NCBI RefSeq assembly: GCF_009914755.1
Contig: NC_060947.1
Length of the DNA stretch: 64,000 nt
Strand: one strand, 5' to 3'
Source of the DNA: the human T2T-CHM13v2.0 reference genome, Homo sapiens
This document shows positions 51,307 through 57,260 of this stretch, piece by piece. The first letter of the stretch is position 1, and each line of letters begins with the position of its first letter. The notes under the pieces are model-generated. The model did no database searches. It saw only the letters and a program-made list of their open reading frames with translations, and was not told where the DNA came from. A program made the translations under genes and the position numbers.

Positions 51307-54300
51307 ATGACAGGATCAAATTCACACATAACAATATTAACCTTACATGTAAATGGGCTACATGCTCCAATTAAAAGACACAGACTGGCAAATTGGATAA
51401 AGAGTCAAGAACCATCAGTGTGCTGTATTCAGGAAACCCATCTCATGTGCAGAGACACACATAGGCTCAAAATAAAGGGATGGAGGAAGATCTATCAAGC
51501 AAATGGAAAACAAAAAAAGGCAGGGGTTGCAATCCTAGTCTCTGATAAAACAGACTTTAAACCAACAAAGATCAAAAGAGACAAAGAAGGCCATTACATA
51601 ATGGTAAAGAGATCAATTCAACAAGAAGAGCTAACTGTCCTAAATATATATGCACCCAATACAGGAGCACCCAGATTCATAAAGCAAGTCCTGAGTGACC
51701 TACAAAGAGACTTAGACTCCCACACAATAATAATGGGAGACTTTAACACCCCACTGTCAACATTAGACAGATCAACGAGACAGAAAGATAAAAAGGATAT
51801 CCAGGAATTGAACTCAGCTCTGCACCAAGCAGACCTAATAGACATCTACAGAGCTCTCCACCCCAAATCAACAGAATTTGGATTAGACAGATTCTTCTCA
51901 GCACCACACAACACCTATTCCAAAATTGACCACATAGTTGGAAGTAAAGCACTCCTCAGCAAGTGTAAAAGAACAGAAATTATAACAAACTGTCTCTCAG
52001 ACCACAGTGCAATCAAACTAGAACTCAGGATTAAGAAACTCACTCAAAACTGCTCAACTACATGGAAACTGAACAACGTGCTCCTGAATGACTACTGGGT
52101 ACATAACGAAATGAAGGCAGAAATAAAGATATTCTTTGAAACTAATGAGAAAAAAGACACAACATACCAGAATCTCTGGGACACATTCAAAGCAGTGTGT
52201 AGAAGGAGATTTATAGCACTAAATGCCCACAAGAGAAAGCAGGAAAGATCTAAAACTGACACCCTAACATCACAATTAAAAGAACTAGAGAAGCAAGGGC
52301 AAACACATTCAAAAGCTAGCAGAAGGCAAGAAATAACTAAGATCAGAGCAGACCTGAAGGAGATAGAGACACAAAGAACCCTTCAAAAAATCAATGAATC
52401 CAGGAGCTGGTTTTTTGAAAAGATCAACAAAATTGATAGACTGCTAGCAAGACTAATAAAGAAGAAAAGAGAGAAGAATCAAATAGACACAATAAAAAAT
52501 GATAAAGGGGATATCACCACCAATCCCACAAAAATACAAACTACCATCAGAGAATACTATAAACACCTCTACACAAATAAACTAGAAAATCTAGAAGAAA
52601 TGGATAAATTCCTCAACACATACACCCTCCCAAGACTAAACCAGGAAGAAGATGAATCTCTGAATAGACCAATAATAGGCTCTGAAATTGAGGCAATAAT
52701 TAATAGCTTACCAACCAAAAAAAGTCCAGGACCAGACGGATTCACAGCCGAATTCTCCCAGAGGTACAGGAGGAGCTGGTACCATTCCTTCTGAAACTAT
52801 TCCAATCAATAGAAAAAGAGGGAATCCTCCCTAACTCATTTCATGAGGCCAGCATCATCCTGATACCAAAGCTTGGCAGAGACACAACAAAAAAGAGAAT
52901 TTTAGACCAATATCCCTGATGAACATCGACGTAAAAATCCTCAATAAAATACTGGCAAACCGAATCCAGCAGCACATCAAAAAGCTTATCCACCATGATC
53001 AAGTGGGCTTCATCCCCGGGATGCAAGGCTGCTTCAACATATGCAAATCAATAAACTTAATCCAGCATATAAACAGAAACAAAGACAAAAACCACATGAT
53101 TATCTCAATAGATGCAGAAACGGCCTTTGACACAATTCAACAACTCTTCATGCTAAAAACGCTCAATAGACTAGCTATTGATGGAACGTATCTCAAAATA
53201 ATAAGAGCTATTTATGACAAACCCACAGCCAATATCATACTGAATGGGCAAAAACTGGAAGCATTCCCTTTGAAAAGTGGCACAAGACAGGGATGCCCTC
53301 TCTCACCACTCCTATTCAACATAGTGTTGGAAGCTCTGGCCAGGGCAGTCAGGCAGGAGAAGGAAATAAAGGGTGTTCAATTAGTAAAAGAGGAAGTCAA
53401 ATTGTCCCTGTTTACAGATGACATGATTGTATAACTGGAAAACCCCATCATCTCAGTCCAAAGTCTTCTTAAGCTGATAAGCAACTTCAGCAAAGTCTCA
53501 GGATACAAAATCAATGTGCAAAAATCACAAGCATTCTTTTTTTTGTTGTTGTTGTTTTTGTTTTTCTTTTTCTTTTTTTTTTTTTTATTATACTCTAAGT
53601 TTTAGGGTACATGTGCACATTGTGCAGATTAGTTACATATGTATACATGTGCCATGCTGGTGCGCTGCACCCACTAATGTGTCATCTAGCATTAGGTATA
53701 TCTCCCAATGCTATCCCTCCCCCCTCCCCCGACCCCACCACAGTCCCCAGAGTGTGATATTCCCCTTCCTGTGTCCATGTGATCTCATTGTTCAATTCCC
53801 ACCTATGAGTGAGAATATGCGGTGTTTGGTTTTTTCTTCTTGCGATAGTTTACTGAGAATGATGGTTTCCAATTTCATCCATGTCCCTACAAAGGATATG
53901 AACTCATCATTTTTTATGGCTGCATAGTATTCCATGGTGTATATGTGCCACATTTTCTTAATCCAGTCTATCATTGTTGGACATTTGGGTTGGTTCCAAG
54001 TCTTTGCTATTGTGAATAGTGCCGCAATAAACATACGTGTGCATGTGTCTTTATAGCAGCATGATTTATAGCCCTTTGGGTATATACCCAGTAATGGGAT
54101 GGCTGGGTCAAATGGTATTTCTAGTTCTAGATCCCTGAGGAATCGCCACACTGACTTCCACAATGGTTGCACTAGTTTACAGTCCCACCAACAGTGTAAA
54201 AGTGTTCCTATTTCTCCACATCCTCTCCAGCACCTGTTGTTTCCTGACTTTTTAATGATTGCCATTCTAACTGGTGTGAGATGATATCTCATAGTGGTTT

Positions 54301-57030
54301 TGATTTGCATTTCTCTGATGGCCAGTGATGATGAGCATTTCTTCATGTGTTTTTTGGCTGCATAAATGTCTTCTTTTGAGAAGTGTCTGTTCATGTCCTT
54401 TGCCCACTTTTTGATGGGGTTGTTTGTTTTTTTCTTGTAAATTTGTTTGAGTTCATTGTAGATTCTGGATATTAGCCCTTTGTCAGATGAGTAGGTTGCG
54501 AAAATTTTCTCCCATGTTGTAGGTTGCCTGTTCACTCTGATGGTAGTTTCTTTTGCTGTGCAGAAGCTCTTTAGTTTAATTAGATCCCATTTGTCAATTT
54601 TGGCTTTGGTTGCCATTGCTTTTGGTGTTTTGGATATGAAGTCCTTGCCCATGCCTATGTCCTGAATGGTAATGCCTAGGTTTTCTTCTAGGGTTTTTAT
54701 GGTTTTAGGTCTAACGTTTAAATCTTTAATCCATCTTGAATTGATTTTTGTATAAGGTGTAAGGAAGGGATCCAGTTTCAGCTTTCTACATATGGCTAGC
54801 CAGTTTTCCCAGCACCATTTATTAAACAGGGAATCCTTTCCCCATTGCTTGTTTTTCTCAGGTTTGTCAAAGATCAGATAGTTGTAGATATGCGGCATTA
54901 TTTCTGAGGGCTCTGTTCTGTTCCATTGATCTATATCTCTGTTTTGGTACCAGTACCATGCTGTTTTGGTTACTGTAGCCTTGTAGTATAGTTTGAAGTC
55001 AGGTAGTGTGATGCCTCCAGCTTTGTTCTTTTGGCTTAGGATTGACTTGGCGATGCGGGCTCTTTTTTGGTTCCATATGAACTTTAAAGTAGTTTTTTCC
55101 AATTCTGTGAAGAAAGTCATTGGTAGCTTGATGGGGATGGCATTGAATCTGTAAATTACCTTGGGCAGTATGGCCATTTTCACGATATTGATTCTTCCTA
55201 CCCATGAGCATGGAATGTTCTTCCATTTGTTTGTGTCCTCTTTTATTTCCTTGAGCAGTGGTTTGTAGTTCTCCTTGAAGAGGTCCTTCACATCCCTTGT
55301 AAGTTGGATTCCTAGGTATTTTATTCTCTTTGAAGCAATTGTGAATAGGAGTTCACCCATGATTTGGCTCTCTGTTTGTCTGTTGTTGGTGTATAAGAAT
55401 GCTTGAAATCACAAGCATTCTTATACACCAATAACACACAAACAGAGAGCCAAATCATGGGTGAACTCACATTCACAATTGCTTCAAAGAGAATAAAATA
55501 CCTAGGAATCCAACTTACAATGGGTGTGAAGGACCTCTTCAAGGAGAACTACAAACCACTGCTCAATGAAATAAAAGAGGACACAAACCAGTGGAAGAAC
55601 ATTCCATGCTCATGGGTAGGAAGAATCAATATCGTGAAAATGGCCATACTGCCCAAGGTAATTTATAGATTCAATGCCATCCCCAGCAAGCTACCAAAGA
55701 CTTTTTCACAGAATTGGAAAAAACTACTTTAAAGTTCATATGTAACCAAAAAAGAGCCCTCATTGCCAAGTCAATCCTAAGCCAAAAGAGCAAAGCTGGA
55801 GGCATCATGCTACCTGACTTCAAACTATACTACAAGGCTACACTAACCAAAACAGCAGGGTACTGGTACCAAAACAGAGATATAGATCAATGGAACAGAA
55901 CAGAGCCCTCAGAAATAATGCCACACATCTACAACTATCTCATCTTTGACAAACCTGAGAAAAACAAGCAATGGGGAAAGGATTCCCTATTTAATAAATG
56001 GTGCTGGGAAAACTGGCTAGCCATATGTAGAAAGCTGAAACTGGATCCTTTCCTTACACCTTATACAAAAATTCATTCAAGATGGATTAAAGACTTAAAT
56101 GTTAGACCTAACACCATAAAAACCCTAGAAGGAAACCTATGCAATACCATTCAGGACATAGGCATGGGCAAGGACTTCATGTCTAAAACACCAAAAGCAA
56201 TGGCAACAAAAGCCAAAATTGACAAGTGGGATTTAATTCAACTAAAGAGCTTCTGCACAGCAAAAGAAACTAGCATCAGAGTGAACAGGCAACCTACAGA
56301 ATGGGAGAGAATTTTTGCAGTCTACTCGTTTGACAAAGGGCTAATATCCAGAATCTACAAAGAGCTCAAACAAATTTACAAGAAAAAAACAAACAACCCC
56401 ATCAACAAGTGGGCAAAGGATATGAACAGACACTTCTCAAAAGAAGACATTTATGCAGCCAAAAGACACATGAAAAAATGCTCATCATCACTGGCCATCA
56501 GAGAAATGCAAATCAAAACCACAGTGAGATACCATCTCACACCAGTTAGAATGGCAATCATTAAAAAGTCAGGAAACAACAGGTGCTGGAAAGGATGTGG
56601 AGAAATAGGAACACTTTTACACTGTTGGTGGGACTGTAAACTAGTTCAACCATTGTGGAAGTCAGTGTGGTGATTCTTCAGGGATCTAGAACTAGAAATA
56701 CCATTTGACCCAGCCATCCCATTGCTGGGTATATACCCAAAGGATTATAAACCATGCTGCTATAAAGACACATGCACATGTATGTTTATTGCGGCACTAT
56801 TCACAATACCAAAGACTTGGAACCAAGCCAAATGTCCAACAATGTTAGACCGGATTAGAAAATGTGGCACATATACACCATGGAATACTATGCAGCCATA
56901 AAAAATGATGATTTCATGTCCTTTGTAGGGACATGGATGAAGCTGGAAACCATCATTTTCAGCAAACTGTCTCAAGGACAAAAAACCAAACATCGCATGT
57001 TCTCCCTTATAGGTTGGAATTGAACAATGA
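51307..57030 (+). pseudogene. L1 ORF2 of the chimeric element, frameshifted and interrupted by L1HS
   Basis: ORF pieces 51307-52794, 52919-53434, 55403-55732 and 55714-56673; frameshift near 52767; FTDD in place of FADD. Confidence 0.9.
53539..55405 (-). mobile_element. 5'-truncated L1HS-Ta (~1.87 kb) nested antisense in the chimeric L1
   Basis: GATGAC-ACA-TTAGTGG (TGT at 53678-53680) and CTTA-G-AGTAT (C at 53595) are Ta diagnostics; 17-bp TSD AAATCACAAGCATTCTT at 53522-53538 and 55406-55422; open ORF2 C-terminal 522 aa. Confidence 0.93.
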
Positions 57031-57260
57031 GAACACATGGACACAGGACTGGGAACATCACACACTGGGGCCTGTTGTGGGGTATGGGGAGGGGGGAGGG
57101 ATAGCATTAGGAGATATACTTAATGTTAAATGACGAGTTAATGGGTGCAGCACACCAACATGGTACATGTATACATAGGTAACAAACCTGCACGTTGTGG
57201 ACATGTACCCTAAAACTTTAAGTATAATAAAAAATAAATAAATAAATAAATAAAAATAAA

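What the first reader, a model, noticed from the sequence alone, without database searches (positions are those of the whole stretch)
53522..57230. L1HS-Ta truncated exactly at the position homologous to its own target: ~3.7-kb near-palindrome with a 6-nt spacer
Seen: the antisense insert ends ...GTATAAGAATGCTTG (55405), then AAATCA, then CAAGCATTCTTATAC... (55412). The two ~1.8-kb arms are the same L1 interval in inverted orientation but from different subfamilies (Ta ACA vs older GAG). Truncation within a few nt of the homologous site is improbable by chance. Inference: the second-strand 3' overhang (AAGAATGCTTGTGATTT) is complementary to the incoming L1 RNA at that position, so it could anneal and halt first-strand synthesis, a homology-guided or abortive twin-priming event. 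Long closely spaced inverted repeats can form hairpins or cruciforms, be fragile, and yield dsRNA (ADAR/MDA5 substrate) if transcribed.
Basis: partly seen in the sequence, partly recalled or inferred. Interest (0 to 1): 0.78.

Follow-up and report, generated by a model that had tools for sequence, protein, structure and literature searches.

The report
Young L1 forming palindrome inside old L1
A very young L1 retrotransposon landed backwards inside an older L1 and stops almost exactly where its own sequence matches the landing site, making a 3.7-kb near-palindrome; a small genome-wide check suggests such matches are far too common to be luck.

Summary
An L1HS-Ta copy (53585-55405, minus strand) carries the ACA marker and an open 538-aa ORF2 tail. 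It is 99.1-99.5% identical to 11 other L1HS copies. It sits antisense in an older, broken L1 (50658-53538 and 55406-57261) between perfect 17-nt target-site duplications, with a T-rich tail at 53539-53584.

Its 5' end (L1 coordinate 4180) lies inside the interval homologous to the duplicated target (4174-4190). The arms are therefore separated only by AAATCA. The central 300 nt fold as a hairpin (-163.6 kcal/mol, z -37).

I surveyed the same genome with ten inverted 16-mer patterns and found 32 other head-to-head L1 pairs. Thirteen are near-palindromic (offset 18 nt or less, no spacer), against 7% expected (13 of 24, P about 2e-9). Seven of these have arms of unequal age or look nested, and two are verified as nested insertions with tail and duplication.

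Best reading (about 0.6): the top-strand overhang pairs in register with the incoming L1 RNA and fixes where first-strand synthesis ends, an abortive twin priming. Later hairpin-loop deletion and chance are not excluded. I found no prior description in five library searches.

The parts
50658..53538 (+). 5' portion of the older host L1 (ruler coordinates 1317-4190), ending with the left target-site duplication
   Evidence: blastn against the window's full-length L1, 94.1% identity. Its ORF2 frame is open for only 195 aa here.
53522..53538 (+). Left target-site duplication AAATCACAAGCATTCTT. The last two T are ambiguous with the tail.
   Evidence: Identical 17 of 17 to 55406-55422, with different bases upstream of each copy.
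53539..53584 (-). Poly(A)-type tail of the insert, read as a T-rich run with G/C interruptions on the + strand
   Evidence: Direct reading.
53585..55405 (-). 5'-truncated L1HS-Ta body: 1821 nt, ruler coordinates 4180-6026, holding the ORF2 C-terminal part and the 3' UTR
   Evidence: It is 99.1-99.5% identical to 11 other genomic copies, with 5 private differences in 1821 nt. At least 39 other copies are listed at 99-100% over the full length. A 538-aa open frame spans 53792-55408. The ACA marker is at 53670-53686.
55406..55411 (+). The 6-nt spacer AAATCA, which is the first 6 nt of the right target-site duplication and is not mirrored by the insert
   Evidence: It forms the loop of the predicted hairpin.
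55406..55422 (+). Right target-site duplication AAATCACAAGCATTCTT. Its reverse complement is the inferred top-strand 3' overhang.
   Evidence: The same 17 nt are present in 10 of 11 L1HS copies at the homologous place.
55406..57261 (+). 3' portion of the older host L1 (ruler coordinates 4174-6029), with the GAG marker at 57130-57145. An A-rich tail follows to about 57283.
   Evidence: blastn gives 93.5% to the ruler and 93.6-94.1% to the 11 L1HS copies. ORF2 is split over at least three frames.

Best explanation
This is a two-step structure: an older L1 was hit, in antisense orientation, by an L1HS-Ta copy through ordinary target-primed reverse transcription.

Shown: there is a 17-nt target-site duplication, a tail, a 5'-truncated young body and a continuous host on both sides. 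The truncation point lies inside the interval homologous to the duplicated target.

Inferred mechanism:
1. After the + strand was nicked at ATTCTT/ATAC and the - strand 17 nt away, the - strand 3' overhang AAGAATGCTTGTGATTT was antisense L1 sequence. It was therefore perfectly complementary to the incoming L1 RNA at coordinates 4174-4190, and it annealed there, as in twin priming.
2. The reverse transcriptase coming from the poly(A) end ran into this hybrid and displaced 11 of its 17 bp. The RNA may instead have been cut inside the hybrid by cellular RNase H.
3. The enzyme then switched onto the now adjacent overhang as template. This filled in the duplication and sealed the 5' junction without any inverted new segment. 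It is an abortive, zero-length twin priming.

The result is a palindrome at birth. The element has no function in itself. Its likely consequence is a hairpin- or cruciform-prone 3.7-kb inverted repeat.
For: - Anatomy: searches give the duplication, tail and host continuity. Searches show the insert is young and the host old and broken.
- Complementarity: 10 of 11 L1HS copies carry the same 17 nt as the host duplication at that place.
- The junction has no filler, and the right duplication is intact.
- Survey: ten inverted 16-mer patterns found 32 other distinct head-to-head L1 loci in the same genome. Thirteen have an offset of 18 nt or less and no spacer, against 7.2% expected on a uniform null. 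That is 13 of 24 after dropping 8 twin-priming-like loci (P 1.8e-9), and 7 of 16 for those with unequal-age or nested-like arms (P 6.7e-5).
- Two of them are verified nested insertions, with the old host on the far side, a T tail and a duplication. At C8:109238737 the insert ends at 5076 and the duplication spans 5066-5076. At C3:170302478 the insert ends at 4970 and the duplication starts near 4988.
- In loci with unequal arms the offsets of insert end against host arm end are +6 (this one), +10, +8, +7, -18, -9, about -6 (judged by eye) and -41. The positive values lie inside duplication-sized intervals, as a block at the hybrid would give.
- Literature, passages read: in twin priming the top-strand overhang anneals internally to L1 RNA (PMC2837659, PMC2912911). 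5' inversions go with 10-20 bp duplications because the overhang must base-pair with the RNA (PMC4245944, discussion). Twin priming occurs in 18-22% of L1 insertions, and the two cDNAs overlap by a median of 12 bp, like the duplication length (PMC12016303). Cellular RNase H2 acts on L1 RNA:DNA hybrids (PMC6068448).
Against: - No step of the mechanism is observed directly; everything is read from end products.
- Three or four of the unequal-arm loci have the insert running 6 to 41 nt past the homologous interval. A simple block at the hybrid does not predict this and it needs an added read-through step.
- At C3:170302478 the host duplication differs from the ruler L1, an L1PA2/3-like copy, at 2 of 10 positions, so a short hybrid there would be weak.
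- Host continuity was verified for only 2 of the 7 other nested-like loci. Four of the 13 near-palindromic loci were judged from 80-nt previews only.
- Five of the 13 are, or may be, single-event fold-back or twin-priming products, not nested insertions: two shown and one probable, and two judged from previews only. Part of the excess therefore has another cause.
- Three events share one L1 site (5066-5078, at GGGAGAAAATTTT). If that site is a hotspot both for nicking and for truncation, the uniform null is too generous.
- The nick site here, TCTT/AT, is only a loose match to the TTTT/A-type consensus.
Confidence: 0.6

Rival explanations
1. Post-insertion trimming. The L1HS copy originally went in longer, perhaps full length, giving an inverted repeat with a large unpaired centre. 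Later a hairpin or cruciform formed and its loop was cut out and rejoined, leaving arms that meet at the homologous point.
For: It predicts offsets of either sign close to zero, and both signs are seen (+6 to +10 and -6 to -41). The centre folds into a very stable hairpin. Hairpin-driven processing of close inverted repeats is established for Alu pairs (PMC3215922, passages citing Lobachev 2000).
Against: It needs two rare events within the short life of an L1HS-Ta copy that has only 5 private changes in 1821 nt. The right-hand duplication is intact in all 3 verified nested loci (17, 11 and 10-11 nt), whereas symmetric trimming should often eat into it. From recall, known palindrome revisions remove central symmetry rather than create it. 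Hairpin formation is held to be rare once the spacer exceeds about 100 bp (PMC3215922).
Confidence: 0.2
2. Coincidence. Truncation and target coordinates are independent, and this is one of the chance matches expected among many nested L1 insertions.
For: In 200 kb next to the window I found no nested antisense event at all, so I could not measure a local rate. If the null has shared hotspots, it is underestimated.
Against: Within the survey's detection range only 7.2% of pairs should have an offset of 18 nt or less, but 13 of 24 do, or 7 of 16 on the narrower count. On those numbers roughly one near-palindromic case in ten would be chance.
Confidence: 0.12
3. A single-event or DNA-level palindrome: a fold-back of one cDNA, an inverted duplication, or an assembly fold-back artefact, followed by divergence of the arms.
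For: Such single-event L1 palindromes exist elsewhere. C12:126272328 has identical 47-nt arms inside one 15-nt duplication. C10:86833233 has a 20-nt inverted 5' piece inside one duplication.
Against: Here the arms are of different subfamily and age: ACA against GAG, and 99.1-99.5% against 93.6-94.1% identity to the same 11 L1HS copies. One frame is open and the other broken. The tail and duplication lie between the host's two halves, and the host continues in register on the far side.
Confidence: 0.02

Closest known systems
Twin priming (L1 5' inversion; Ostertag and Kazazian 2001, read only as described in PMC2837659, PMC2912911, PMC4245944 and PMC12016303)
   Same: The top-strand 3' overhang made by second-strand cleavage anneals to an internal site of the L1 RNA before first-strand synthesis is complete. 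The first cDNA ends at or near that site. The duplication is long, 17 nt here.
   Different: No inverted segment of the new element was made. The sense arm is the old host, not a second cDNA. The pairing is 17 of 17 by homology rather than a few nt of microhomology, so the annealing site is dictated by the target.
Microhomology-mediated or annealing pathway of L1 5'-end joining (Zingler 2005, seen as a citation only; Yamaguchi 2014, PMC4245944, discussion read)
   Same: The 5' truncation point is set by an interaction between the target overhang and the retrotransposition intermediate.
   Different: In that pathway the overhang pairs with the cDNA and leaves shared bases at the junction. Here the overhang and the cDNA have the same sense and cannot pair, and the junction shows 0 nt of microhomology.
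Chimeric L1s formed between a new L1 cDNA and a pre-existing L1 (Gilbert 2002, Symer 2002; recalled, not read here)
   Same: Homology between the incoming element and a resident L1 decides how the 5' end is resolved.
   Different: From recall, those involve same-orientation elements, cDNA-to-DNA annealing and loss of intervening DNA. This one is inverted, keeps its duplication and loses nothing.
Closely spaced inverted Alu pairs, and the 180-bp Xq27.1 palindrome (PMC3215922, passages; PMC6489244, abstract in a search listing)
   Same: A near-palindrome with a spacer far below the range of about 100 bp in which hairpin-driven instability is reported.
   Different: The arms are about 1.85 kb of L1 at 93% identity (95-96% near the centre). 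No instability has been shown at this locus.

Membership tests
L1HS-Ta subfamily (the insert) | ACA trinucleotide at the 3' UTR diagnostic site, where older L1s have GAG and pre-Ta has ACG | tested here: met
   The insert reads GATGACACATTAGTGGG and the host reads ATGACGAGTTAATGGG. PMC7026601 (passages) names ACA as Ta-defining and lists ACG and GAG as alternatives.
L1HS-Ta subfamily (the insert) | Near-identity to other human-specific copies, and low private divergence | tested here: met
   The insert is 99.1-99.5% identical to 11 copies and has 5 private differences in 1821 nt. At least 39 other copies are listed at 99-100% over the full length.
L1HS-Ta subfamily (the insert) | Further Ta-0/Ta-1 diagnostic positions | not tested
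   No subfamily reference was available in the tools, and I did not use positions from memory.
Canonical endonuclease-dependent TPRT insertion | Target-site duplication flanking the insert | tested here: met
   17 of 17 nt match, at 53522-53538 and 55406-55422.
Canonical endonuclease-dependent TPRT insertion | Poly(A) tail at the 3' end and 5' truncation | tested here: met
   There is a 46-nt A-rich tail (T-rich on the + strand) at 53539-53584, and the body starts at ruler coordinate 4180.
Canonical endonuclease-dependent TPRT insertion | First-strand nick at a TTTT/A-type site | tested here: inconclusive
   The inferred nick is 5'-ATTCTT/ATAC-3'. It is T-rich before an A, but it is not one of TTTT/A, TTTT/G or TTTC/A, the motifs used in PMC12016303.
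Twin-priming product (5'-inverted L1) | Two segments of the same new element in opposite orientation inside one pair of duplications | tested here: not met
   The sense arm is the old host, which continues outside the duplications. No new sense segment lies between the insert and the right duplication.
Twin-priming product (5'-inverted L1) | Complementarity between the target overhang and the L1 RNA at the site where the first cDNA ends | tested here: met
   The 17-nt overhang is complementary to the sequence found in 10 of 11 L1HS copies, and the insert ends 6 nt inside that interval.
DNA-level inverted duplication or fold-back | Arms derived from one another: same subfamily, equal age, flanks included | tested here: not met
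   The arms show ACA against GAG, 99% against 94% identity to L1HS copies, and an open against a broken frame. A tail and duplication lie at the outer edge of one arm only.
Microhomology-mediated 5' junction | Bases at the 5' junction assignable to both the insert and the target | tested here: not met
   The junction is GCTTG|AAATCA. The base before each duplication copy differs, and no bases are shared.

The most novel reading that the evidence does not exclude
When an L1 integrates antisense into a resident L1, the cleaved target strand pairs in register with the incoming RNA. In a sizeable share of events (my rough, unverified estimate is of the order of one in ten) this forces the new copy to end within about 10-20 nt of the homologous point. 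L1 would then be a regular de novo maker of kilobase-sized, near-perfect palindromes. The junctions would be natural footprints of second-strand cleavage happening before first-strand completion, and of a residual hybrid of about 6-10 bp at which the enzyme switches template.
Probability: 0.45. Interest if true: 0.75.

Novelty: new variant of a known kind. Interest (0 to 1): 0.66.

Why it matters
The order of events at the L1 5' junction is still inferred mostly from microhomologies of a few bases. The open points are when the second strand is cut, whether its overhang really pairs with the RNA, and how the enzyme leaves its template.

An antisense L1 target turns that weak signal into a 10-17-nt perfect match whose effect can be read off genome sequence. 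That makes the question directly testable, both by a full annotation-based survey and by retrotransposition assays into designed targets.

It would also identify L1 as a source of long palindromes with almost no spacer. Such structures are known from Alu pairs and model organisms to provoke hairpins and breaks, and they are usually masked or excluded in insertion studies. PMC2912911 states that insertions inside repeats could not be characterised, and PMC7026601 that nested L1Hs are missed by short reads.

This particular locus lies in a gene-poor stretch, with no gene annotated in the window, so a direct phenotypic effect is unlikely.

Tried and rejected
- Random sampling: I fetched 200 kb directly upstream of the window and scanned it with the window's L1 as ruler. 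It held 39 L1 matches (24.9 kb) and 2 head-to-head junctions, both of twin-priming type, and no nested antisense insertion. This has too little power, so I dropped it in favour of patterns.
Palindrome centres more than 250 nt from a chosen 16-mer were therefore not surveyed. Both arms also had to keep the 16-mer exactly, so the survey is a lower bound.
- Patterns at ruler coordinates 4885 and 5863 found nothing.
- A search with the 121-nt centre found no second locus spanning both arms among the 40 of 846 candidates scored.
Host continuity was therefore checked at only 2 other near-palindromic loci. C11:58030944 stayed unresolved, and several loci were read from previews only.
- The twin-priming paper (PMC311219) is not held.
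- An assembly artefact and a single-event fold-back were considered for this locus and rejected on arm age and host continuity.
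Full report
**What is there**

Around 55405-55412 the + strand reads ...GTATAAGAATGCTTG, then AAATCA, then CAAGCATTCTTATAC.... The inverted-repeat search found three collinear arm pairs that together span 53534-55405 and 55412-57281:
- 293 nt at 96%, with 6 nt between the arms;
- 1161 nt at 95%;
- 425 nt at 86%.

Over the whole arm, blastn gives 93.4% over 1851 nt and a MAFFT alignment gives 93.0% over 1875 columns. 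Identity falls from 92-97% per 200-nt bin in the coding part to 86% and 74% in the last two bins (3' UTR and tail).

**Anatomy**

I used the nearly full-length L1 of the same window (6932-12990, minus strand, 6059 nt) as a coordinate ruler. blastn then gives three adjoining pieces:
- 50658-53538 (+), ruler 1317-4190, 94.1%;
- 53561-55405 (-), ruler 4180-6026, 97.4%;
- 55406-57261 (+), ruler 4174-6029, 93.5%.

The + strand pieces are therefore one older L1 split at 4190/4174. The 17 nt AAATCACAAGCATTCTT are present on both sides, at 53522-53538 and 55406-55422. The match is 17 of 17, and the bases upstream of each copy differ. Between them lie a 46-nt T-rich run (53539-53584) and an antisense L1 body (53585-55405).

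This is the signature of a target-primed insertion: duplication, tail and 5' truncation. The inferred first nick is 5'-ATTCTT/ATAC-3' on the + strand, which matches the usual T-rich/A site only loosely.

**Ages of the two arms**

- The insert keeps a 538-aa open frame from its first base to the ORF2 stop (53792-55408, minus strand). The host's ORF2 is split over at least three frames.
- The insert carries GATGACACATTAGTGGG and the host ATGACGAGTTAATGGG. PMC7026601 (passages read) calls ACA the Ta-defining motif and lists ACG and GAG as the alternatives.
- A search of the same genome with the 1821-nt body listed 39 other places at 99-100% over the full length; only 40 of 5138 candidates were scored.
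- Against the 11 copies that were fetched, the insert is 99.1-99.5% identical and has 5 private differences. The host arm is 93.6-94.1% identical to the same 11.

The arms are therefore two elements of different age. They are not a fold-back of one, and an assembly fold-back artefact is excluded.

**The coincidence**

The insert begins at ruler coordinate 4180, and the duplicated target covers 4174-4190. In 10 of 11 close L1HS copies, the bases 5' of the truncation point are AAATCA followed by CAAGCATTCTT. That is the same 17 nt as the host duplication. The - strand overhang was therefore complementary, 17 of 17, to a typical incoming L1HS RNA. First-strand synthesis ended 11 nt into that stretch, leaving 6 nt (AAATCA) unmirrored. 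There is no filler and no shared base at the junction.

**Is it more than chance?**

A random 200-kb sample next to the window held no nested antisense L1 at all. I therefore searched the whole genome for head-to-head L1 pairs, using patterns of the form reverse-complement(K), 0-500 nt, K. K stood for ten 16-mers shared by both arms, at ruler coordinates 4409 to 5973. The locus itself was recovered as a positive control.

The ten patterns gave 37 places. One X/Y pseudoautosomal pair is counted once, and three loci were hit by two patterns, which leaves 33 distinct loci, 32 besides this one.
- 13 are near-palindromic: arm ends within 18 nt on the L1 ruler and no spacer.
- 2 are palindromes with an Alu or a microsatellite at the centre.
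- 3 abut without spacer but with offsets of 41, 100 and 110 nt.
- 6 have spacers of 72-316 nt, are complex, or stayed unresolved.
- 8 are of twin-priming type: one arm is only the 16-mer, or a short overlap.

If the two arm ends were independent and uniform within the detection range, 7.2% of pairs would have an offset of 18 nt or less. The observed counts are:
- 13 of 24 after dropping the 8 twin-priming-like loci (P 1.8e-9);
- 7 of 16 when only pairs with unequal-age or nested-like arms are counted against all non-palindromic and unresolved pairs (P 6.7e-5);
- 2 of 5 when only the two verified cases are counted (P 0.045).

**What the other near-palindromes are**

Two are verified nested antisense insertions.
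- C8:109238737: an old sense L1 (ruler 4811-5076, 91%) is followed by a T tail and the 3' end of an antisense L1. At the centre, that antisense arm (98.7% to the ruler) ends at 5076. It is followed by the duplication CAGAATGGGAG and the old L1 from 5066 (88.5%).
- C3:170302478: old L1 4745-5001 (82%), then a T tail and a young antisense arm (97.3%) ending at 4970, then the duplication AATGAGATAT and the old L1 from 4988 (85.5%).

Three more have clearly unequal arms, but their flanks could not be fetched:
- C2:169536602: 94.9% against 84.7%, arm ends at 5074 and 5066;
- C17:41909672: 93.9% against 74.0%, arm ends at 5078 and 5071;
- C6:79971903: arm ends at 5196 and 5187.

C10:52874826 (arm ends 4490 and 4483) and C3:140111971 (by eye, about 5219 and 5213) are similar.

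Expressed as insert end minus host arm end, the offsets are +6 (this locus), +10, +8, +7, -18, -9 and about -6. For the non-palindromic C3:13918535 the offset is -41.

Five of the 13 are a different thing or may be. C12:126272328 and C10:86833233 are shown to be single insertions whose two arms lie inside one duplication. C23:74738585 is probably one too. C2:103792107 and C8:13644635 were judged from previews only. In C12:126272328 the arms are identical, 47 nt each, and are centred on L1's own ATGTATACAT. Part of the excess therefore comes from fold-back or twin-priming products. The nested class remains over-represented on its own.

**Mechanism**

In twin priming, as described in papers I could read, the top-strand overhang anneals to an internal site of the L1 RNA after second-strand cleavage and primes a second cDNA (PMC2837659 and PMC2912911, passages). 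5' inversions go with 10-20 bp duplications because the overhang must base-pair with the RNA (PMC4245944, discussion). Long-read data give twin priming in 18-22% of L1 insertions, and an overlap of the two cDNAs (median 12 bp) that resembles the duplication length (PMC12016303, passages).

An antisense L1 target supplies not a few bases of microhomology but a perfect match, at a position dictated by the target. I therefore propose the following:
- The overhang annealed at 4174-4190.
- The enzyme coming from the tail displaced 11 bp of this hybrid. Alternatively, the RNA was cut inside it by RNase H2, which is known to act on L1 RNA:DNA hybrids (PMC6068448, passages).
- The enzyme then jumped onto the adjacent overhang, copying the 17 nt that became the right duplication.

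The positive offsets of 6-10 nt at four loci fit a residual hybrid that falls apart. The negative offsets need a short read-through before the switch. All of this is inference from end products.

**Rivals**

- Later trimming. A later excision of the unpaired centre of an initially longer insert would also give offsets near zero, and of both signs. Against it: the insert is young; the duplication is intact at all three verified loci; from recall, known palindrome revisions destroy central symmetry; and hairpins are rare once spacers exceed about 100 bp (PMC3215922, passages). I cannot exclude it without allele data.
- Chance. From the survey, chance accounts for roughly one near-palindromic case in ten.
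- Shared hotspots. Three events fall at one L1 site (5066-5078), so shared hotspots for nicking and truncation could inflate the excess.

**Consequences**

The central 300 nt fold as a single hairpin with the 6-nt loop AAATCA (-163.6 kcal/mol; shuffles average -30.4, z -37). In the human genome, inverted Alu pairs with spacers of 24 bp or less reach only about 0.08 of the number of direct pairs, and hairpin-driven loss is placed at spacers of 0-100 bp (PMC3215922). A 180-bp palindrome at Xq27.1 is described as a rearrangement hotspot (PMC6489244, abstract in a listing). Whether this 3.7-kb structure is fragile, polymorphic or transcribed was not tested. No gene is annotated in the window.

**Novelty**

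Five full-text searches and passages of eight papers gave no description of L1 copies truncated at the coordinate of an antisense L1 target. Studies of 5' junctions often leave out insertions in repeats (PMC2912911), and nested L1Hs are missed by short reads (PMC7026601).

The library lacks most subscription papers, including the twin-priming paper, and I opened no supplements. Prior mention therefore cannot be ruled out. I class the finding as a new variant of a known kind: an abortive, homology-directed form of twin priming.

Noticed in passing
window 23004-25148: This is a classical twin-priming L1. An inverted segment (ruler 3845-5206, minus strand, 90%) abuts a sense 3' segment (5211-6007, 86%) at 24353, with a 4-nt gap between the two on the L1 ruler. 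An older L1 piece lies at 22295-23007.
   Followed up: partly
window 6932-12990 (minus strand): A nearly full-length L1 (6059 nt) that is 97.4% identical to the Ta insert over the shared 1.85 kb. I used it as the coordinate ruler and did not assign its subfamily.
   Followed up: partly
L038 4883-5126 (G000:C12:126272257-126272500): A single L1 insertion inside one 15-nt duplication (CTCCAAGGAATTTCA). Its 3' end forms a perfect palindrome of two 47-nt arms centred on L1's own ATGTATACAT, followed by an extra piece from ruler 5500-5579. It looks like a cDNA that folded back and copied itself.
   Followed up: partly
G000:C8:109238737, C2:169536602, C17:41909672 (L051, L054, L056): Three separate near-palindromic L1 pairs, with arms of different ages, have their centres at the same L1 site, ruler 5066-5078, next to GGGAGAAAATTTT. 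This may be a hotspot for antisense nicking, for truncation, or for both.
   Followed up: no
G000:C6:53030113-53030446 (L042) and G000:C2:216206837-216207020: In these palindromes both L1 arms stop at the same L1 coordinate, but the centre holds inverted Alu sequence at one locus and a (TG)n(TA)n run at the other. That suggests DNA-level inverted duplication, or microsatellite growth at a palindrome centre (previews).
   Followed up: no
L039 4887-5130 (G000:C23:74738549-74738792): Two short L1 3' ends lie head to head, with a T-rich run on the left outer side and an A-rich run on the right. The arms meet within about 10 nt on the L1 ruler, and one arm has an internal deletion. It resembles the dual-priming or poly(T) class described in PMC2837659.
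   Followed up: no
window 58072-64000 (minus strand): Several antisense L1 pieces lie in series: ruler 4254-5843 at 78%, then 3481-6007, 2180-3454 and 1565-2123 at 87-89%. That is an old L1 3' end next to a longer, interrupted L1.
   Followed up: no
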